A stretch of 41,430 bases of DNA from Patescibacteria group bacterium (lineage in GTDB: Bacteria; Patescibacteriota; Kazan-3B-28; UBA10110), in contig JAHITC010000033.1 in assembly GCA_018817805.1 (NCBI GenBank), forward strand, positions 1 through 41,430. Reading direction: 5' to 3'. Every line of letters begins with the position of its first letter. Position 1 is the stretch's first letter. Shown in pieces: positions 929 through 41,430 of the stretch. The notes under the pieces are model-generated. The model ran no database searches. It saw only the letters and a program-made list of their open reading frames with translations, and was not told where the DNA came from. The position numbers and the translations under genes are program-made.

Positions 929-977
929 TGCTGTATGACCTTCGAACCTTTTGTTTAAGTTTGGGGTAAGAAAAAAA
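929..977 (-). repeat. intergenic repeat module, copy A (truncated; lacks the promoter half)
   Basis: Minus-strand TTTTTTTCTTACCCCAAACTTAAACAAAAGGTTCGAAGGTCATACAGCA is shared with copies B and C. Confidence 0.8.
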
Positions 978-1001
978 CCACCTCCCATCTTTGGGGGGCG
1001 G
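971..1001 (-). terminator. intrinsic terminator after the 43-aa ORF
   Basis: Minus strand CCGCCCCCC-AAAGAT-GGGAGGTGG followed by TTTTTTT. The T-tract is the first part of repeat copy A. Confidence 0.6.
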
Positions 1002-8557: not shown

Positions 8558-9796
8558 TTATCTCACTGGGTTAGATACTGACCCAAAGAACTTTGACCAG
8601 AAGCCAGTCGGTGGGGTTTGATCATCCCCAGCCGGTGGCGCATAATCCACCACACTGTTGATTATACCAGCTCTAGTCATATACAGTAAAGCAGAGCCAA
8701 CTCCACCTTCAGGGGCTGGCAACTCTCCCAACATTGGTATTACTCCAGAAAAAACCAAATCGTCTAAATCTTTTAACTGAGATGCATCAGCTAATCTCAT
8801 CTCCTGTAATTCCTTCAACAATTCAATGCGCAATTGTGAAGCCCTCATTTCTTTCATCGTCGATTCTAAAGACTGCGGAATATCTATATTTGGATTTTGC
8901 GTTGTATCTCTCTCCGAGCTAGTTACAGTCAAAGTAATTTTCTTACTAACAGTAGACTTATCGATGTCTTCGCCTTGTGCCAAAATAGTAAAATTATAAA
9001 TAGTGGCAGGAGTAGCGGGTGTAGTAGTTAGCCGCAGATCGGCTGTAAACGGCGCCAAACCCTGTGCAGGAGTAATTTGGGCTGTAATGCTAGGAGTTAG
9101 GTCGGCAATTGATAAATTCACCTGTGAAGCATAACTATTTGGCGAAGAAATACCAATTCGATAAACCGCTTGTCCTGAGGCATAAACAACGTGCGCAGTA
9201 GGTTGAATTACCATGTCAAAAACAGGTTTCGACAATGCTGTATCAGTCGCGGTTAGGACAATAGCATTAACTGCCCACAAATTCTCTGCTGTACCTATGC
9301 GACTAAAATCTATTTCTACAACACCATCGACAGGGGTAACACTTAAAATTACATGGTTCCATTCTCCTGGATTACTACGAATTAAATAATTTTGACCAGC
9401 ATAACTAACTTTAGTGGCCATGTTGTCTACAAAATCGCCACTAATAATTTCAGCATTATAAAGTGTGTGAGTGAGTCCGGAAACCTTGAACTTAGCCGGA
9501 TCGATACCAACGTTAGCATCTCGAAGGCGCAAATCGGCAACTGCGTTGCCGTGACTTTTAATAATGACTGGGTCTAACCAACCATGTTCGAGGCCCAAGT
9601 CGGCAGTTGGATACATCGAGCCACCCACCGAAATATATCCGGCTGCCTTGCCCCCATTGTCACCAAAATCGAATTTAACAGTCGCGTCACTGTTATCTGC
9701 TAAACTCCAGCCTACCAGCGCTATTAACACTATGCTCAACGCAATAGCAGCACGTAGTTCGCTCTTTATAATTTTAGTAAAGAAGCTAGATATCAT
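8558..9796 (-). CDS. hypothetical membrane-anchored/secreted protein (412 aa) with a beta-rich, CBM-like N-terminal domain
   Basis: N-terminal hydrophobic anchor AAIALSIVLIALVGWSLA. The FDFGDNGG...GY...HGW pattern resembles carbohydrate-binding-like modules, but no firm family was recognised. Confidence 0.6.
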   Translation of the reverse strand: MISSFFTKIIKSELRAAIALSIVLIALVGWSLADNSDATVKFDFGDNGGKAAGYISVGGSMYPTADLGLEHGWLDPVIIKSHGNAVADLRLRDANVGIDPAKFKVSGLTHTLYNAEIISGDFVDNMATKVSYAGQNYLIRSNPGEWNHVILSVTPVDGVVEIDFSRIGTAENLWAVNAIVLTATDTALSKPVFDMVIQPTAHVVYASGQAVYRIGISSPNSYASQVNLSIADLTPSITAQITPAQGLAPFTADLRLTTTPATPATIYNFTILAQGEDIDKSTVSKKITLTVTSSERDTTQNPNIDIPQSLESTMKEMRASQLRIELLKELQEMRLADASQLKDLDDLVFSGVIPMLGELPAPEGGVGSALLYMTRAGIINSVVDYAPPAGDDQTPPTGFWSKFFGSVSNPVR

Positions 9797-9820: not shown

Positions 9821-11209
9821 TTATACCAAGCTCTTTTCAGCACTAACAGCTGTTTGCACTGTTTCTTCGGGAGTAAGGTTAGTTTCTAGCGAACGGAAGA
9901 CCATCGTATCGGGGTAGAAATAGAGTTCTACTTGGCCTACGGGACCATTGCGATGCTTCGCAATAATTATATCGGCAACGTTAGGACGATCAGAACTTTT
10001 ATTGTAATAATCATCCCGGTAAATAAACATAACTACATCGGCATCTTGTTCTATAGAGCCACTTTCTCTTAAATCAGAAAGTTGCGGAATTTTATTTGGC
10101 CTCTTCTCTACTTCTCTGGAAAGCTGAGATACCGCTATGACAGGAATATTTAACTCTCTTGCAAGCCCCTTAAGTCCTCTCGAGATGTCTGAAATTTCTT
10201 GAACACGACTTTCAGATCTACCGCGACTTTCCATCAGCTGCAGATAATCGACAACCAATAGGTCTAGATTCTTTTCGGACTGCAATCTTCTAGCTTTAGT
10301 GCGCATCTCCATCACATTCATACCAGGAGAATCATCGATATAAATAGACATTTCCGAAAGCTGACTAATGGTTTCACCCATACGATTAAAATCTTCTTCG
10401 CGTAAATTACCAGTTCGAAGTCGCCAAGAATCGACCCCAGATTTAGCACTAATCAACCTATCTACCACCTGCTCCTTAGACATTTCCAAATGGAACATTC
10501 CCACCGAAAAACCAGCTGTCGCAGCATTTAAAACAAAATTAAGAGCTAGACTAGTTTTACCGATACTAGGACGCGCAGCTACAATAACTAAATCTGACTT
10601 TTGAAGTCCTGCTAAAATATTATCTAGATTTTTAAAGCCAGTTGGTATACCTCTTAGCTCTCCGCGATTGGCATGCAACTTGTCCATTCTTTCGAACGCA
10701 TCTTCCAGCACAGACTTAACTGCAATAAACCCACTTTTAAGATGCCTCTGAGAAACTGTAAATAAAGTTTGTTCAGCTTTATCAAGTAAATTGTCTACTT
10801 CGTCTTTTTGGTTGCGCCCTAAGGTCTCAATTTCGTTAGCAGCTGCGATTAACCTTCTTAAGGTAGCTTTGCTCGCCACAATGCCGGCATACCCTGCTAC
10901 ATTAGCACTGCTTGGCAAACTACTAGCCAGTTCGGATAGATAACCAGCCCCACCAATATTTTCTAATTCTTTTCTGTCTTTAAGCGAACTCGATACTGTC
11001 ACAATGTCTAGAGGTCTTTGTTTTTCGTACAAATCTAGCATTGCTTGAAAAATTGTACGATGGCGTTGTTCGTAAAAATCATCCGCCTTTACCAAGTCTG
11101 CCACTTTAATCATTGCGTCGCGATCTAAGAGCAATGATCCAAGCAAAGACTTCTCTGCATCCAGATTTTGTGGGGGAACAATTATGTTAGATGAATTTGT
11201 CTGATTCAT
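9821..11209 (-). CDS. dnaB: replicative DNA helicase DnaB
   Basis: PQNLDAEKSLLGSLL..., Walker A ARPSIGKTS, and VIAVSQLSREVE. Confidence 0.95.
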   Translation of the reverse strand: MNQTNSSNIIVPPQNLDAEKSLLGSLLLDRDAMIKVADLVKADDFYEQRHRTIFQAMLDLYEKQRPLDIVTVSSSLKDRKELENIGGAGYLSELASSLPSSANVAGYAGIVASKATLRRLIAAANEIETLGRNQKDEVDNLLDKAEQTLFTVSQRHLKSGFIAVKSVLEDAFERMDKLHANRGELRGIPTGFKNLDNILAGLQKSDLVIVAARPSIGKTSLALNFVLNAATAGFSVGMFHLEMSKEQVVDRLISAKSGVDSWRLRTGNLREEDFNRMGETISQLSEMSIYIDDSPGMNVMEMRTKARRLQSEKNLDLLVVDYLQLMESRGRSESRVQEISDISRGLKGLARELNIPVIAVSQLSREVEKRPNKIPQLSDLRESGSIEQDADVVMFIYRDDYYNKSSDRPNVADIIIAKHRNGPVGQVELYFYPDTMVFRSLETNLTPEETVQTAVSAEKSLV

Positions 11210-36998: not shown

Positions 36999-38085
36999 TT
37001 ATGGTTTTAACAAAATAACACTATTAATTAGCTCATCCAGATTGCCTTCTTCTAAAACTTCCTTAATCTGGGTGGTAATAAAATTGCTACGATGATCTTT
37101 AATTTGATGGTATGGATGCAACACATACGAACGAACTTGATGGCCAAAATCTCCAGACTGTTCAGAGCTTTTTAGAAATCTTTCAGCCTCGTCTTTATTT
37201 TGTTGATGACGTAGATATAACTTGTGTTTCAGAAGCTTCATCGCAGTTTCTTTGTTTTGCATCTGTGAACGCTCGTTTTGCACAGCAACTGAAAGTTTAG
37301 TTGGCAAATGCGTAATGCGCACTGCCGAATCGGTAGTGTTCACCCCCTGCCCCCCTTTGCCACTAGATTTAAACACATCAACCCGAAGTTCTTTCTCGGG
37401 AATATCCATCTCTTTTATATCCCCTAGATCAGGAATGACTTCGACTAATGCAAAGGAAGTTTGCCTTAGATTTTGAGAATTAAACGGTGAAAGACGCACC
37501 AACCGATGCACTCCTTTCTCAGCTTTTAGAAGACCATAAGCCATGTCCCCTTCTACTCTTAATGTAGCACTTTTCACCCCTGCTTCATTCCCTATAGCTT
37601 GGTCAACAATAGTCATCTTCCATCCTCTACGTACAGCATATTTTTGATACATCTCCATTAGCATTCTAGTCCAATCGGCAGCATCAGCTCCCCCAGTCCC
37701 ACTATGCAGAAACATGTATGCATCCTTGCGGTCGTATTCGCCGTTTAAAACTGTTTCACGCTCTAAGTTATCTAATCGTTTTTGTAAGTCGTCTAATAAC
37801 GCTACTGCCGCTTCATCAGTGCTAGAAAAATCTTCCCCCTTCATTACATTACCCAAGTTACTAAGCTGACTATCTATATCCGAAAGTTCTTCTAGAATCT
37901 TTTTATTCTTTTCAAATTCTTTAGTAATATTTGTAGCATTAACCTGATCCTCCCAAAAAACAGGATCAATCATCTCTTTTTCTAATTGTTTATTTTTTGA
38001 AGTAAGACCGGCCGGGTCAAAGATACCCCCGCAGTCTAGATAGCTGGTCTAAGGCTTCTGCGACTGAAAACTTGATTTCTTTCAT
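36999..38085 (-). CDS. prfB: peptide chain release factor 2, expressed via programmed +1 frameshift (join 38085..38020, 38018..36999)
   Basis: SPF and GGQ motifs occur in the long ORF. The upstream short frame is MKEIKFSVAEALDQLSRLRGYL, ending in CGG GGG TAT CTT TGA C, and the +1 frame continues DPAGLTSKNKQLEKEMIDP. Confidence 0.95.
38016..38032 (-). promoter_or_regulatory. prfB +1 frameshift site (internal SD-like GGGGG, slippery CTT, UGA C)
   Basis: Minus strand GCGGGGGTATCTTTGAC. The core is identical to the classical E. coli site. Confidence 0.9.
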
Positions 38086-38137
38086 AGATATATTATATCT
38101 CAATCATTAAGGATAATGATGAATGTATAACATAACC

Positions 38138-38166
38138 AAAACTCTCCCCACCAAAAGCCGGGAGAG
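38138..38166 (-). terminator. intrinsic terminator 12 nt downstream of the template repeat
   Basis: Minus strand CTCTCCC-GGCTTTTGGTG-GGGAGAG followed by TTTT. Confidence 0.55.
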
Positions 38167-38178
38167 AAATGAAGATAG

Positions 38179-38308
38179 TTGCGGCGGACAAAGACAAAAC
38201 GGTTGTCGCTATACCAATGATTGTCTGGATTGGCATAGTTCGTGTCAAGCCACGGGTCATTATCGTCGTGGTTGACATTGAACACCTTGAGGCCACCGTT
38301 CGAGTCCG
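38179..38308 (-). repeat. DGR-type template repeat (TR), non-coding
   Basis: 130 nt aligning without gaps to 38666-38795 (116/130 identical). All 14 differences are A in this copy on the minus strand. The homologous frame is preceded by TAA, has no ATG (a GTG lies inside it), and is rich in AAY codons. Confidence 0.8.
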
Positions 38309-38570
38309 TTTATGTGCAAAATACCTTCCATTGTCACTGCCCGACAAACGCTTTATCTAGCAGAGTGGCTGGGCTGTATTTTATCCGATTGTCTTTAAAC
38401 AATCTTAGCATCTTACACCAAGTATCTTCATTTTTTGAAGTTTCTACATGTGACCTCTGTTTTCAACCTTAATCGAAAACACTCTCATCACATGGATACT
38501 TAGTTTCGGTAGTCAGAAACCTTGGTCTCTGGCATATTCACCTACTTCCAGACATATTCTACCAGACATG

Positions 38571-38606
38571 AAAAAGCCCAGCTTTAGTTTGAAACTAAAG
38601 CTGGGC
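38571..38606 (-). terminator. intrinsic terminator of the variable-protein gene
   Basis: Minus strand GCCCAGCTTTAGTTT-C-AAACTAAAGCTGGGC followed by TTTTT. Confidence 0.7.
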
Positions 38607-38661
38607 AGGACAAAGTCCATCCATCCAAAGGATTCAAGGGGCCAAGGAACAAGTTCCAAGA

Positions 38662-39294
38662 TTACTTGCGGCGGACAAAGACAAAACGGAAGACGCTAGA
38701 CCAATGATAGTCTGGATCGGCACAGTACGTGTCAAGCCACGGGTCACTACCGACGTGGGAGACATTGAACACCTTGAGGCCACCGTACGAGTCCGCAATG
38801 GGTTCCATGCCGATAAGAATGTATTCTATTGGTGGTTGATCCTGGTAATCCAGACGTAATGCCGGACCAACTTCTGGTGGACAAAGTTGCAAACCCATGG
38901 ACGGCGCTTTTCCGTAGATATCCTTTTGAGTTGCGCCGCTGGGAAATCCGAGTTCAGCGACGGTTACCAACACGAGCTCAACATCGGTTGGTTCGTTTGT
39001 TATCTTGAATGCTGGTTTTTTGATCATGTCATTGGCCCAGTTACCAACTCTGAAACCAGCCTCCTTGAGCGCTTTGAGATAATCATCAGCACTCTTGTGG
39101 GCACCGAGTTTGATGGTCTTCCATGTCTTATTAAATTGACAATGGTCATCAATTACTGCCTGCATGGCAGCTTTTAATCGTCCAAGGTCTTTCTCAGACC
39201 TCCGGCCATCTCGCACCATTTTTATTATGGTCGCGAACCCGACCGTCAACCACTCGATCAAAGTGGCAATTTCAGAGTTTCTGGCTCTTGTCAT
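38662..39294 (-). CDS. DGR target (variable) protein candidate, 210 aa, otherwise uncharacterised
   Basis: ORF with GGAG 6 nt before ATG 39294. The C-terminal 43 codons are the variable repeat, and the C-terminus ...RFVFVRRK resembles the ends of C-type-lectin-fold DGR variable regions. It looks GC-richer than the flanks by eye. Confidence 0.75.
   Translation of the reverse strand: MTRARNSEIATLIEWLTVGFATIIKMVRDGRRSEKDLGRLKAAMQAVIDDHCQFNKTWKTIKLGAHKSADDYLKALKEAGFRVGNWANDMIKKPAFKITNEPTDVELVLVTVAELGFPSGATQKDIYGKAPSMGLQLCPPEVGPALRLDYQDQPPIEYILIGMEPIADSYGGLKVFNVSHVGSDPWLDTYCADPDYHWSSVFRFVFVRRK
38666..38795 (-). repeat. DGR-type variable repeat (VR) at the 3' end of the 210-aa gene
   Basis: Counterpart of the TR. 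It has T/C/G (minus strand) at the 14 TR-adenine positions, changing 12 codons, all non-synonymously. Confidence 0.8.
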
Positions 39295-39413
39295 TTTTAT
39301 CTCCATCCTGTGCTACTAACACAGGGCTCACTCTCTGTAATCCGGCTTTTCACGGCTCGGTGTCTAAGTGGCGCGATAACGCGATGATATCAAGGTCATC
39401 AATTTCCCCCCTA

Positions 39414-39545: not shown

Positions 39546-41430
39546 TTATTCTTCTTCACCGGTAAAATCTTCCACTATAGTCACAAACCGAAGCTTATTT
39601 CTAATCTGTAACACTTTCCAGGTAGCTATAGTAGCAAGCAATGAAGCAATCGCCATTAATAACCAGTTAAGCGCACCAGTAGGAGTTAATGGGTCCGTAG
39701 ATCCACTGCCAGCCACAGTAATGTCGTTGGCGTAAACCCATATCCCATTTGAGACTTCATTTGCAGATACGAATGCCTTGGCTCTAACTAAAGTATTTCT
39801 AGGCACAACAGAGTTAATAACTACCCTCACTGTCATCGTCTTGCTTTCGTAAGGCATTAAGCTATTGCTTAATGTCCAAGTAATAGTGCGGTTGTTAATT
39901 GTAGGAGCACCGCTACCAGAGCTCGCAGAAATGAATTTAGTATACTCTGGCACATCGAAAGTAGCTCTTACGCCACTTAAGGTTGTGCTGCGGTTGTTAG
40001 TAATTCTTAAGGTATAAGCTAATACATCATTTTCTAGAGCACTACCACCGTTATCATCAATACCACTTAAGGTTGCATCGATACCATAGTTGTTGTCACT
40101 GCCACCAGTTCTGACAATAACATCTGCATAATCAGATCTTTCAATACCATTTCTGTAAGCTCTTACCCTAACAGTATTGTAATAAGTACCTATGTTATTG
40201 CTGGCAGTGAAATAACCACTTTGGTTAATATACCCAGCTTGGCTATTTACCACATCCCAAGTGTAAGAAGCTGAAACAGCATCACCAGATGTGTTATATG
40301 CTTGGGCCGAGAAATAAGTAGAAGCACCAGTATTTAAGGTAACGGTTTGAGGAGCTAAAGTTACATAACTTAACTCATCGTTGTAGTAACCACCAGTTAC
40401 TGTCACGGTAGCAGTGTCGTAGCGTTCGATGCTACCTTGCATGGCTTTAACTTCGACAGTAATTGTGCCTGTGGTATCGCTAGCTTGGTACAAACCATTT
40501 TGACTAATACTGCCACTACCAGAAAGTATTCTCCAGCTGTAACTGACGGAGCTAAACAATGGTGAATGGTTGGTGTCAAATGCTTGTGCATCAAAATCGA
40601 ACGATTGGTTAGTACTAATCGTAATCGAAGATGGATACGCCTCGACATAATCCAAAGCAGTCTGAACAATAATAGAATTTACAGTTACAGTTGCGTAGGC
40701 GTATACCACTTGGCCACCTATGCTACTGCCCATGCTAGCACGCACTTTAACGGTGCTATCAAAAGTACCAGAGGTAGTTCCGGCTGTGAATAAGCCCGTA
40801 TATGGCTCGATGCTGCCACCACTATGGATTACCGACCAGATATAATCTACGCCACTATTAATGATGCGATTGTATTGGTCGTAAGCTGTGGCTGTAAACT
40901 GTCTGGTTTGGTGTGGGTCTAAAACAGTATTAGCAGGATAAACCACTACCGAAGTAAGAATTATTTCTTCTTCAGTTTGATTAATAGTTACACTAACTGC
41001 ATCAGTAATAGTTTTCCCGTTATAACTACCGCTTAACTTAATTGCATTAGCGTAATATCCAGCCCTATTCCCAGCTGAATATAAGCCAGATTGGGTAATG
41101 GTGCCTACTTCAGTCGAGTTGTATCCACTCTCTATACTCCAAACAAATGAAGTAACCGAAGTAATATCATTTCCACTTGTATCGTAAGCTCTAGGATATA
41201 GCTGTTTGCTGTAATTCGGATCGATACTAAAGCTAGAGATTGATGAACCAACATTATCGATAATTTCGACTCTGAATAATGTCGCTACCGGTGTATCACC
41301 TTTAGTTACAATTACTCTAGCGTAAACTTCCAAAGCTCCATTAGGACTAGTAGCAGTTAGTTTAACTACATTGTTGTAAGTGCCAATGTTATGACCAGCT
41401 GTAAAGTAACCGGTTTGAGTAATTGAACCA
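39546..41430 (-). CDS. large surface protein, 5'-partial: repeated Big_2-like Ig domains, DUF11-like domain, C-terminal membrane anchor
   Basis: Repeats of the type G.I...G.FTAG...GTY...V.V. LAYTLRITNN...L.GV is DUF11-like. C-terminal helix LNWLLMAIASLLATIATW. The frame stays open to 41430 (GSITQTGYFTAGHNIGTYNNVV...), so the M at 41333 is not the start. Confidence 0.8.
   Translation of the reverse strand, partial: GSITQTGYFTAGHNIGTYNNVVKLTATSPNGALEVYARVIVTKGDTPVATLFRVEIIDNVGSSISSFSIDPNYSKQLYPRAYDTSGNDITSVTSFVWSIESGYNSTEVGTITQSGLYSAGNRAGYYANAIKLSGSYNGKTITDAVSVTINQTEEEIILTSVVVYPANTVLDPHQTRQFTATAYDQYNRIINSGVDYIWSVIHSGGSIEPYTGLFTAGTTSGTFDSTVKVRASMGSSIGGQVVYAYATVTVNSIIVQTALDYVEAYPSSITISTNQSFDFDAQAFDTNHSPLFSSVSYSWRILSGSGSISQNGLYQASDTTGTITVEVKAMQGSIERYDTATVTVTGGYYNDELSYVTLAPQTVTLNTGASTYFSAQAYNTSGDAVSASYTWDVVNSQAGYINQSGYFTASNNIGTYYNTVRVRAYRNGIERSDYADVIVRTGGSDNNYGIDATLSGIDDNGGSALENDVLAYTLRITNNRSTTLSGVRATFDVPEYTKFISASSGSGAPTINNRTITWTLSNSLMPYESKTMTVRVVINSVVPRNTLVRAKAFVSANEVSNGIWVYANDITVAGSGSTDPLTPTGALNWLLMAIASLLATIATWKVLQIRNKLRFVTIVEDFTGEEE

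What the first reader, a model, noticed from the sequence alone, without database searches (positions are those of the whole stretch)
38086..38661. Template repeat is a stand-alone, terminator-bracketed unit with no reverse transcriptase or Avd nearby
Canonical DGR cassettes place the TR next to the RT gene, usually with avd, and co-transcribe TR, a spacer and RT. Here the TR sits in a 576-nt ORF-poor stretch.

This stretch begins about 55 nt before the strong terminator of the target gene (38571-38606). It ends with its own hairpin plus T-run (38138-38166) only 12 nt past the TR. The prfB promoter and start (38097-38083) follow immediately.

No translation in the six-frame track of this 41-kb window shows RT motifs such as Y-x-DD, and no Avd-sized ORF lies between VR and TR. 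Two explanations fit:
- The RT acts in trans from elsewhere, beyond 41430 or at another locus. An independently transcribed TR RNA would be an unusual architecture.
- This is a fossil cassette that kept its mutagenesis footprint.
Basis: inference. Interest (0 to 1): 0.75.

Follow-up and report, generated by a model that had tools for sequence, protein, structure and literature searches.

The report
DGR template unit without its enzyme
This stretch is a complete, self-contained template-RNA gene of a protein-diversifying retroelement (DGR) that has lost its neighbouring reverse transcriptase and helper gene, yet still looks functional, most likely because an enzyme encoded on another contig of the same genome bin serves it.

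Summary
VR (38663-38795) and TR (38176-38308), both read on the minus strand, differ at 15 positions. Fourteen lie at TR adenines; the fifteenth is at the repeat boundary. No RT or Avd is encoded anywhere in the 41-kb window.

In about 45 related Patescibacteria cassettes the TR always sits in the same unit: target terminator, -10-like promoter, a roughly 250-nt structured leader (43 of 49 pairs covary, no Rfam match), TR, a leader-to-3'-flank duplex, then a stem-loop with a U-run. Antisense avd and RT follow. This is the published B3 architecture.

Here avd and RT have been deleted; only 11 avd codons remain. A syntenic relative (L087) has the same RT-less unit next to prfB.

The window's unit looks active:
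- no internal non-A mismatch;
- 47 of 49 leader pairs formed;
- an 11-bp flanking duplex intact;
- TR changes mirrored in its VR.

A partial DGR-type RT, MBU1083358.1, lies 82 proteins after this contig's last gene, so it probably belongs to the same MAG.

Verdict: a split DGR served in trans (about 0.6), a relic (about 0.25), or RT just beyond the contig end (about 0.1). It is a new variant of a known kind.

The parts
38662..39306 (-). DGR target gene (214 aa; NCBI aa, KKE14_02455 / MBU1083275.1). It belongs to a Patescibacteria-only family of ~200-aa proteins whose C-terminal positions are hypervariable.
   Evidence: ORF list. 195 homologues, none with a Pfam domain. The alignment shows variable C-terminal columns. 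AlphaFold model pLDDT 90.5; the best PDB fold hits are C-type lectin domains, but only weakly (E ~0.03, TM 0.42-0.46).
38663..38795 (-). Variable repeat (VR), ending at the stop codon. Its last ~24 nt (38666-38689) are adenine-poor and identical to the TR, which is IMH-like.
38571..38606 (-). Intrinsic-terminator hairpin of the target gene: 14-bp stem plus UUUUU, 56 nt after the stop codon. A GC hairpin occupies the same place in relatives.
   Evidence: A conserved 90-nt post-VR segment with a hairpin is seen in L003, L087 and L089.
38556..38564 (-). Extended -10-like promoter element TGGTAGAAT. It sits 11 nt upstream of the conserved leader start 'TAGGTGAAT'. The putative start of the TR RNA is near 38548.
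   Evidence: A TAnAAT hexamer, often with TG, is visible at this aligned position across the 42-sequence leader alignment. A crude automated hexamer pick placed it 11-13 nt before TAGG in 23 of 40 sequences and found the TG extension in 16. The promoter function is inferred, not shown.
38309..38548 (-). Structured leader of the TR RNA (~240 nt): two 5' hairpin domains, and a 12-bp long-range helix that closes just before the TR and encloses two small hairpins.
   Evidence: The nucleotide sequence is conserved at 70-81% across the family. RNAalifold gives 49 pairs, 43 with compensatory changes. 97.3% of cells are paired, against 78% in shuffles and 39-47% with slid partners; covariation score 0.674 against 0.284. 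The window forms 47 of 49 pairs. No Rfam match. The whole unit folds with z = -5.5.
38423..38433 (-). Leader strand (AAAUGAAGAUA) of a long-range duplex that brackets the TR.
   Evidence: It pairs with 38167-38177 over 11 bp in the window. Nine base pairs are conserved family-wide, with covariation at 4 positions. 87% of cells are paired, against ~47% when shifted.
38176..38308 (-). Template repeat (TR). It is non-coding. In the VR frame it reads as an Asn/Asp-rich peptide.
38167..38177 (-). 3'-flank strand (UAUCUUCAUUU) of the TR-bracketing duplex. It lies within the family-conserved motif CGCAACUCUCUUCAUUUC.
38138..38166 (-). Post-TR stem-loop plus U-run. It is lineage-conserved and its stems covary. 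It probably serves both as the terminator of the TR RNA and as the Avd-binding-type stem-loop. Read antisense, it encodes the last ~11 codons of the lost avd gene.
   Evidence: Alignment of 47 TR 3' flanks. Fold energies; L087 and L003 have 9-bp stems with tetraloops. The avd tail is matched by tblastn at 38137-38169. The comparison with Handa et al. rests.
38086..38137 (-). Deletion junction, where homology to the family cassette ends. It also contains the prfB promoter-like TATAAT.
   Evidence: Alignment with L087, L003, L037 and L022. No avd or RT remnant by blastn, tblastx or tblastn.
36999..38085 (-). prfB (RF2, with a +1 frameshift). This housekeeping gene takes the place that avd and RT occupy in relatives.
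   Evidence: Pfam PCRF and RF-1. The same synteny is seen in L087.

Best explanation
The 576-nt stretch is the template-RNA gene of a Patescibacteria-type DGR (architecture target-TR-(avd)-RT, RT clade 'CPR').

**Proposed mechanism.**
1. After the target gene's terminator, a -10-type promoter drives a non-coding RNA of about 410 nt.
2. This RNA consists of a ~240-nt structured leader, the 133-nt TR, a duplex that pairs the leader with the TR's 3' flank, and a terminal stem-loop with a U-run.
3. In intact relatives this RNA is bound by Avd and RT, encoded just downstream. It is copied into adenine-mutagenised cDNA, which replaces the VR at the end of the target gene 487 nt upstream.
4. At this locus the avd-RT module has been deleted, and prfB now abuts the TR terminator. 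The RNA gene and the VR remain intact.
5. The unit therefore most likely keeps working with RT-Avd supplied in trans from another place in the genome. The best candidate is the partial RT MBU1083358.1, on a 9.5-kb contig of the same bin.

**Shown:** the anatomy, the homology, the RNA covariation, the absence of RT and Avd in the window, and the adenine-specific signature.

**Inferred:** transcription start and end, trans supply of the enzyme, and current activity.
For: 1. **DGR signature.** All 14 internal mismatches are at TR adenines, and none of about 98 non-A sites differs. This cannot be told apart from 41 RT-linked VR/TR pairs of the family (median 0 non-A mismatches, 10-26 mismatches in total).
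2. **Every RNA element of intact cassettes is present and well formed.**
   - The unit matches the family profile from position 37 to 478 of 490 (E = 3e-102).
   - 47 of 49 leader pairs form, against a family mean of 47.3.
   - The TR-bracketing duplex is 11 bp.
   - The stem-loop is present.
3. **A syntenic relative has the same RT-less unit.** L087 has a target 58% identical and housekeeping DNA 76-80% identical, and carries the unit between the big surface-protein gene and prfB.
   - The two leaders differ by at least 5 double compensatory changes.
   - They are 84% identical at family-conserved columns against 65% elsewhere. This points to continued constraint.
4. **TR changes are mirrored in the VR.** At 11 non-A sites where the two TRs differ, each VR carries its own TR's base. 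In 7 of these the window's state is derived. TR-to-VR transfer therefore followed TR change in this lineage, interleaved with A-only differences.
5. **A candidate RT exists in the same bin.** It is a DGR RT N-terminal fragment with the YADD motif, 77-78% identical to the RTs of L003, whose target and leader are also among the nearest relatives of the window's. Its accession MBU1083358.1 is 83 numbers after the target's. Accessions in this record run strictly in gene order along the contig: 3235 is KKE14_02245 and 3275 is KKE14_02455.
6. **Precedent.** Avd, TR and RT work in trans experimentally, and RT-less degenerate loci diversified in trans are reported (PMC5758913; PMC10907252).
Against: - The RT contig's DNA could not be read. 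It is therefore unknown whether that RT is intact, has an avd, or carries its own TR. It is also unknown whether it truly belongs to this genome, since binning and accession order are only indirect evidence.
- No population data exist. Three assemblies give the same VR.
- The window's TR has lost four family-conserved adenines.
- It keeps 89% of the highly conserved leader columns, against a family mean of 95%. This is compatible with slight relaxation.
- L087 shows about 10 non-A VR/TR mismatches, and L037 is a clearly decaying truncated cassette. RT-less units do decay.
- Orphan targets in two other genomes do not match the TR of the co-resident cassette. Trans service is therefore not general in this family.
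- If avd-RT was lost independently and recently in the window's lineage, the mirrored TR/VR changes could predate the loss.
Confidence: 0.6

Rival explanations
1. Relic. The avd-RT module was deleted fairly recently and no enzyme in the cell now uses this TR. The VR is frozen in its last diversified state, and the TR unit has simply not had time to decay.
For: - Truncated cassettes that are clearly decaying exist in the family. L037 keeps 43 avd codons and has 3 non-A mismatches.
- The syntenic L087 has ~10 non-A mismatches.
- The window's TR has lost four conserved adenines and is slightly below the family mean in conserved leader positions.
- Many family targets have neither TR nor RT within 10 kb. 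Two of them do not match the co-resident TR.
Against: - No internal non-A mismatch in 133 nt.
- Full RNA structure, with compensatory differences from L087.
- Conserved columns evolve more slowly than others between the two RT-less orthologues.
- Derived TR bases have been copied into the VR.
- There is a DGR RT in what is very probably the same bin.
Confidence: 0.25
2. Ordinary but stretched cassette cut by the assembly. RT (with avd) lies just beyond position 41430, upstream of the big repeat-protein gene and on the same strand. The true order would be (avd)-RT-X-target-TR, and the missing RT would be an artefact of a contig break.
For: - The window ends at a real contig end inside a repeat-rich gene.
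- The candidate RT is cut at its C-terminal end by a contig end, and it reads towards that end. This geometry would allow the two contigs to abut.
- RT-upstream-of-target arrangements exist in the family (L004).
- Nested unrelated ORFs are known in DGRs (PMC5758913).
Against: - In all ~43 RT-linked relatives, RT starts ~400 nt downstream of the TR with avd antisense between them. Here that position shows a deletion scar with an avd tail.
- Even in this scenario RT would lie at least 3.3 kb from the TR, on the far side of two genes, and the TR would still be a separate transcription unit.
- The two contigs are 82 proteins apart in the record. This is weak evidence, because contig order is arbitrary.
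Confidence: 0.1
3. Not a DGR at all. On this view the two 133-nt copies are a partial gene duplication, or a pseudogene fragment of the target's 3' end, that diverged by ordinary mutation.
For: The 38176 copy can be read in the VR frame as a related peptide.
Against: - Fourteen of 15 differences fall on one base of one copy, although that base makes up only 26% of the repeat (35 of 133).
- The same repeat, leader and hairpins are found next to DGR RTs and Avd in ~43 loci.
Confidence: 0.02

Closest known systems
CPR/Patescibacteria DGR cassettes of architecture B3, TR-(avd)-RT (Wu et al. 2018, PMC5758913; RT clade 2 of Roux et al. 2021, PMC8144416)
   Same: - The target family is homologous, with no known domains and a C-terminal VR.
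- VR-to-TR spacing is similar (487 nt here; 477 nt in L003; offsets of about 380-540 nt in the table).
- Leader, TR flanks and post-TR stem-loop are homologous.
- The adenine-specific signature is the same.
   Different: The antisense avd and the RT, the two defining protein genes, are absent. prfB sits where they should be, and only 11 avd codons remain.
Degenerate or incomplete DGR loci of Thiohalocapsa PB-PSB1, diversified in trans (Dore et al. 2024, PMC10907252)
   Same: [quoted passage not shown] An enzyme encoded elsewhere in the genome is proposed to act in trans.
   Different: - There, several RT-less loci rely on the TR of another locus, and RT was replaced by MITE arrays. Here the locus keeps its own complete TR RNA gene, and only the proteins would come in trans.
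- The lineage is different: clade 5 in multicellular bacteria there, CPR here.
- Trans activity here is inferred, not observed in reads.
Trichodesmium erythraeum DGR template-repeat ncRNA (Pfreundt et al. 2014, PMC4143802)
   Same: The TR is transcribed as a discrete non-coding RNA from its own promoter. That one is 265 nt and acts on targets in trans.
   Different: - There, transcription was shown by dRNA-seq and Northern blot, and RT is nearby. Here the promoter and terminator are only predicted and RT is not nearby.
- The RNA here carries a much longer structured leader.
Bordetella phage BPP-1 DGR RNA: avd 3' end, TR and spacer (Handa et al. 2018, PMC6182149; 2024 bioRxiv 10.1101/2023.10.23.563531)
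   Same: The TR must be flanked by RNA on both sides. A duplex pairs sequence upstream and downstream of the TR, and a stem-loop just downstream of the TR binds Avd. Both kinds of element are present here and are supported by covariation.
   Different: - In BPP-1 the functional flank is mostly the ~140-nt spacer downstream of the TR, and the RNA is co-transcribed with avd and brt.
- Here the large structured part (~240 nt) lies upstream. The 3' flank is only ~45 nt and ends in a terminator.
- No sequence similarity was found, and the equivalence of the elements is an inference.

Membership tests
Diversity-generating retroelement (DGR) | A VR/TR repeat pair whose differences fall almost only on adenines of the TR | tested here: met
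   133 nt with 15 mismatches. Fourteen are at TR adenines and one is at the boundary.
Diversity-generating retroelement (DGR) | VR inside a protein-coding target, typically the C-terminal part of a C-type-lectin-fold (or Ig-fold) domain | tested here: inconclusive
   The VR occupies the last 44 codons of gene 38662-39306. The model is confident (pLDDT 90.5), but similarity to C-type lectin domains is weak (E ~0.03, TM 0.42-0.46). There is no Pfam hit.
Diversity-generating retroelement (DGR) | A DGR-clade reverse transcriptase encoded next to the TR | tested here: not met
   No RVT_1 in any ORF of at least 90 aa. No tblastn match to family RTs in the window. A candidate RT exists on another contig, probably of the same bin.
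Diversity-generating retroelement (DGR) | Accessory gene avd (present in most DGRs) | tested here: not met
   Only an 11-codon C-terminal remnant at 38137-38169.
Diversity-generating retroelement (DGR) | RNA elements flanking the TR that are needed for cDNA synthesis: a duplex between upstream and downstream flanks, and a stem-loop just 3' of the TR | tested here: met
   An 11-bp duplex, 38423-38433 with 38167-38177, with family covariation. A stem-loop at 38142-38166 whose stems covary across the family. Their function is inferred from Handa et al..
Diversity-generating retroelement (DGR) | IMH-type 3' end of the VR plus an inverted repeat downstream of the VR, for target recognition | tested here: inconclusive
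   There is an adenine-poor 24-nt identical 3' end. A 14-bp hairpin lies 56 nt after the stop codon, further away than in BPP-1, and it looks like a terminator.
CPR-type DGR cassette, architecture B3: target-TR-(avd)-RT | Homology of target, leader, TR flanks and stem-loop to the lineage | tested here: met
   Target homologues. The unit profile matches at E = 3e-102. Alignments.
CPR-type DGR cassette, architecture B3: target-TR-(avd)-RT | Antisense avd directly after the TR stem-loop, and RT ~400 nt downstream of the TR | tested here: not met
   Homology stops after the U-run, and prfB starts 46 nt later. Relatives have both genes.
RT-less (degenerate or satellite) DGR locus served in trans | [quoted passage not shown] | tested here: met
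   No internal non-A mismatch to its own TR. This is within the range of RT-linked pairs.
RT-less (degenerate or satellite) DGR locus served in trans | An intact DGR RT (and Avd) elsewhere in the same genome | tested here: inconclusive
   MBU1083358.1 is a 260-aa N-terminal RT fragment with YADD on a 9.5-kb contig, 82 proteins after this contig's last gene in the same accession series. The contig's DNA, RT completeness and avd could not be checked.
RT-less (degenerate or satellite) DGR locus served in trans | Ongoing adenine-site diversification of the VR in the population | not testable with these tools
   Only consensus assemblies are available, and three assemblies give an identical VR.

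The most novel reading that the evidence does not exclude
In Patescibacteria DGRs the template is an autonomous RNA gene running from promoter to terminator. A ~240-nt covarying leader, not in Rfam and not described in the papers I could read, forms the scaffold for RT-Avd together with a TR-bracketing duplex and a 3' stem-loop.

Because the RNA gene is self-contained, it can be physically uncoupled from the enzyme genes. Selection then maintains it as a target-plus-guide satellite at a housekeeping locus. Here that has happened in two diverged species, giving a natural two-part (split) DGR.
Probability: 0.45. Interest if true: 0.65.

Novelty: new variant of a known kind. Interest (0 to 1): 0.5.

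Why it matters
- **Missed by current surveys.** DGR surveys start from the RT gene, so TR-plus-target units that have lost their RT go uncounted. If such units stay active through an enzyme encoded elsewhere, the number of diversified genes in small-genome CPR bacteria is underestimated.
- **Modularity.** The template RNA would be shown to be a portable module.
- **A testable RNA.** The conserved leader, bracketing duplex and stem-loop give a concrete RNA, rich in covariation, for asking how a non-Bordetella RT-Avd recognises its template.
- **Engineering.** It is also a compact promoter-to-terminator template cassette that could be useful for engineered DGR mutagenesis.
- **If it is a relic.** It would then be a well-dated snapshot of how DGR cassettes decay.

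Tried and rejected
**Attempts that failed**
- Exact-protein look-ups of the 214-aa target, MurC-like and methyltransferase ORFs found nothing, because start codons differ.
- A look-up of the RT fragment P0171 failed. A homology search with P0171 found no near-identical copy in other assemblies. The RT contig could therefore not be read.

**Searches with little or no yield**
- The VR/TR pattern scan of viral contigs gave 0 hits.
- The single metagenome scan returned only L088, which is a piece of L087.
- The window's MAG is not among the GTDB representative genomes, so its other contigs could not be scanned.
- Rfam has no family for the leader or the hairpins.

**Ideas tested and rejected**
- Orphan targets in genomes that also hold a full cassette might be served by that cassette's TR. 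Rejected: 14 and 30 non-A mismatches.
- P0127's contig (L089) might be the RT locus of the L087 organism. Rejected: it comes from a different sample and its TR is only 71-74% identical.
- Gene conversion between VR and TR might explain the mirrored changes. Rejected as a sufficient explanation, because A-only differences are interleaved with the mirrored sites.
- The 296-nt extra segment of L087 was searched for RT remnants. Nothing was found beyond ~34 decayed avd codons.

Full report
**1. Observation**

The window holds one strong direct repeat, 38176-38308 and 38663-38795 (133 nt, 89% identical). Of its 15 mismatches, 14 are T on the + strand of the first copy, which is adenine on the minus strand. 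The other, 38178, sits at the 3' boundary next to the stop codon.

Read on the minus strand, 38663-38795 is the last 44 codons of an ORF (38662-39306). The 38176 copy is non-coding and reads as an Asn/Asp-rich version of the same peptide. These are the VR and TR of a diversity-generating retroelement.

- 38606->38576 plus U5: 14 bp, -23.3 kcal/mol, z = -6.0.
- 38166->38142 plus U-run: -18.6 kcal/mol, z = -4.3.

The prfB start codon follows at 38085.

No ORF of at least 90 aa in the window has an RVT_1 or Avd domain (gene table). The window is an ordinary Patescibacteria chromosome stretch: mur/fts operon, dnaB, dnaX, cysS, hisS, rplI, ftsEX, prfB, DUF5674. A permissive tblastn with family RT and Avd proteins found nothing better than E = 0.15, apart from an 11-codon Avd tail under the post-TR hairpin.

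Position 41430 is a true contig end. An independent ENA assembly begins at exactly that base, inside a repeat-rich surface-protein gene.

**2. What the lineage normally looks like**

The target belongs to a Patescibacteria-only family of ~200-aa proteins without Pfam domains. Their C-terminal positions are hypervariable.

A scan of GTDB representative genomes gave 382 relatives, of which 80 loci were read. About half of them have a DGR RT starting roughly 900 nt after the target's end. In these loci a TR lies a few hundred nt downstream of the VR (offsets of about 380-540 nt, read from the table). Mismatches are almost all at TR adenines: 41 pairs, median 0 non-A mismatches, 10-26 mismatches in total.

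Between TR and RT lies a conserved ~120-aa Avd-like ORF on the opposite strand. This is the B3 architecture, 'TR-(avd)-RT', which Wu et al. found in 90% of CPR DGRs (PMC5758913). It is also the Patescibacteria RT clade of Roux et al., whose targets lack known domains (PMC8144416).

**3. The 'ORF-poor stretch' is a conserved RNA gene**

The VR-TR spacer is conserved at the DNA level (70-81%) across loci whose target proteins are only ~50% identical.

In an alignment of 42 units, the elements occur in this order:
- the target terminator;
- a TAnAAT hexamer, often TG-extended, at a fixed 11-13 nt before the conserved 'TAGGTGAAT' (visible in the alignment; a crude automated pick placed it there in 23 of 40 sequences and found TG in 16);
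- a ~240-nt leader;
- the TR.

RNAalifold predicts 49 leader pairs, 43 of them with compensatory changes. On the same alignment:
- 97.3% of cells pair, against 78.0% in shuffles and 39-47% with slid partners;
- the covariation score is 0.674 against 0.284.

A further long-range duplex joins leader AAAUGAAGA to UCUUCAUUU immediately 3' of the TR. It is 9 bp family-wide and covaries at four positions. 87% of cells are paired, against ~47% when shifted.

Next comes a stem-loop with covarying stems, often 9 bp with a tetraloop, and then UUUUG. The 3' end of the antisense avd overlaps it.

Rfam has no matching family. Handa et al. describe, for the Bordetella element and by prediction for 207 other DGRs including CPR ones, a duplex between sequences upstream and downstream of the TR and an Avd-binding stem-loop just after the TR. 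The elements found here fit those classes. That study looked only 40 nt upstream of the TR, so the large leader is not covered by it.

The TR in this lineage is therefore always a promoter-to-terminator unit, separate from the RT mRNA. This feature is not special to the window. A TR ncRNA with its own promoter is already known in Trichodesmium.

**4. What is special here**

Homology to the family unit runs from the terminator to the U-run (profile positions 37-478 of 490, E = 3e-102) and then stops. prfB starts 46 nt later. avd and RT are gone.

The same is true of L087, a contig from a related organism. Its target is 58% identical and its housekeeping DNA 76-80% identical. Its synteny is identical: big surface protein, target, TR unit, prfB, ftsE. 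L087 keeps ~34 decayed avd codons and has a 296-nt insert before prfB. A third, independent truncation (L037) keeps 43 avd codons.

The locus is thus a deletion derivative of a B3 cassette. The RT-less state is either ancestral to the window and L087, or it arose twice at the same place.

**5. Active or fossil?**

In favour of continued function in the window:
- There is no internal non-A VR/TR mismatch, as in RT-linked pairs.
- 47 of 49 leader pairs are formed (family mean 47.3), and the bracketing duplex is a perfect 11 bp.
- The window and L087 differ by at least five double compensatory changes in one leader domain.
- The two are 84% identical at family-conserved leader columns against 65% at other columns.
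- At 11 non-A positions where the two TRs differ, each VR carries its own TR's base. By outgroup comparison 7 of these are derived in the window's lineage and 2 in L087's. These sites are interleaved with the A-only differences, so plain gene conversion does not explain them.

Against:
- The window's TR has lost four conserved adenines.
- Leader conservation is slightly below the family mean, 89% against 95 +/- 6.5%.
- L087 has ~10 non-A mismatches, and L037 has 3.
- Orphan targets in two other genomes do not match the co-resident TR.
- Three assemblies of the window's population give the same VR, so no population diversity can be seen.

**6. Where is the RT?**

A homology search with the RT of L003 returned P0171. 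L003's target and leader are among the closest to the window's. P0171 is a 260-aa N-terminal RT fragment with the YADD motif. It is 77-78% identical to L003's two RTs, and it runs off the end of a 9,510-nt NCBI contig.

Its accession is MBU1083358.1 and the window's target is MBU1083275.1. Eight other window proteins show that accessions in this record follow gene order along the contig exactly: 3235 is KKE14_02245 at 218-541, 3274 is FtsE and 3275 is the target. The RT is therefore 82 proteins after this contig's last gene. That very probably puts it in the same MAG, on another contig.

The contig's DNA could not be obtained. Completeness of the RT, presence of avd, its own TR, and physical linkage all remain unknown. 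The fragment reads towards its contig end, so it could even abut position 41430. I keep that as a rival.

**7. Conclusion**

The 'unusual independent TR transcript' is, however, the lineage norm.

The best reading (about 0.6) is a split DGR: an intact target plus template-RNA gene whose RT-Avd is supplied from elsewhere in the genome. A recent relic (about 0.25) and an assembly-cut stretched cassette (about 0.1) are not excluded.

RT-less DGR loci served in trans have a precedent in Thiohalocapsa (PMC10907252), and trans complementation is established experimentally. This is therefore a new variant of a known kind, not a new kind.

The most novel by-product is the large covarying leader RNA of Patescibacteria DGRs.

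Noticed in passing
window 38309-38548 (minus strand); L003 10692-10953; 40 other loci in alignment A3: A ~240-nt structured leader lies upstream of the TR and is conserved across Patescibacteria DGRs. 43 of 49 pairs covary and there is no Rfam family. It may be an undescribed RNA motif that forms the RT-Avd scaffold.
   Followed up: yes
window 38607-38661 (minus strand); L003 9664-9720 and 10619-10670; L087 3062-3115; L089 230-290: Between the VR stop codon and the terminator hairpin lies a pyrimidine-rich run of CCUUG/CUUGA-like repeats. It is conserved in relatives. It could be part of target-site recognition, or it could be a protein-binding site.
   Followed up: no
L031 10602-11579; L050 1100-2171: Two loci carry two tandem leader-plus-TR units after one target. 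This shows that the template-RNA gene duplicates as a module.
   Followed up: partly
L013, L019, L025, L035, L044, L059, L065, L077, L083, L085 (targets at ~10000-10470): Many family targets have neither TR nor RT within 10 kb on either side. In two genomes that also hold a full cassette (L012/L059 and L040/L048), the orphan VR does not match that cassette's TR (14 and 30 non-A mismatches). These orphans are either relics or are served by templates that were not seen.
   Followed up: partly
window 931-980, 1258-1352, 2010-2104: Three copies of a 50-71-nt direct repeat (CTGTACGACCTTCGRACCTTTTGTTT...) lie in intergenic DNA near the DUF5674 gene and unknown ORFs. Their function is unknown.
   Followed up: no
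window 36999-38085 (minus strand): prfB carries the classical RF2 +1 frameshift site (GGGGG UAU CUU UGA C, near 38005-38025). NCBI gives it no protein accession between FtsE (MBU1083274) and the target (MBU1083275).
   Followed up: partly
window 39546-41430 (minus strand): A large repeat-rich surface protein gene (weak DUF11 / Lipoprotein_17 hits) is cut by the contig end in the independent ENA assembly of this organism (L001) and in the related L087. It is probably the cause of the assembly break that hides what lies upstream.
   Followed up: partly
window 8558-9796 (minus strand): A 412-aa ORF between a cyclophilin-region gene and dnaB has no Pfam hit.
   Followed up: no
window 38176-38308 (minus strand); unit positions 314, 315, 362, 395: The window's TR has G or T where nearly all family TRs have adenine. 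Fewer positions can therefore be mutagenised than in relatives.
   Followed up: partly
L003 8983-12549; L004 8281-12083; L089 768-3140: Full cassettes of this family often sit beside mobile-element genes: ParB-N6 methyltransferase, serine recombinase, phage integrase, PIN. L003's 344-kb contig carries two RTs that are 77% identical.
   Followed up: no
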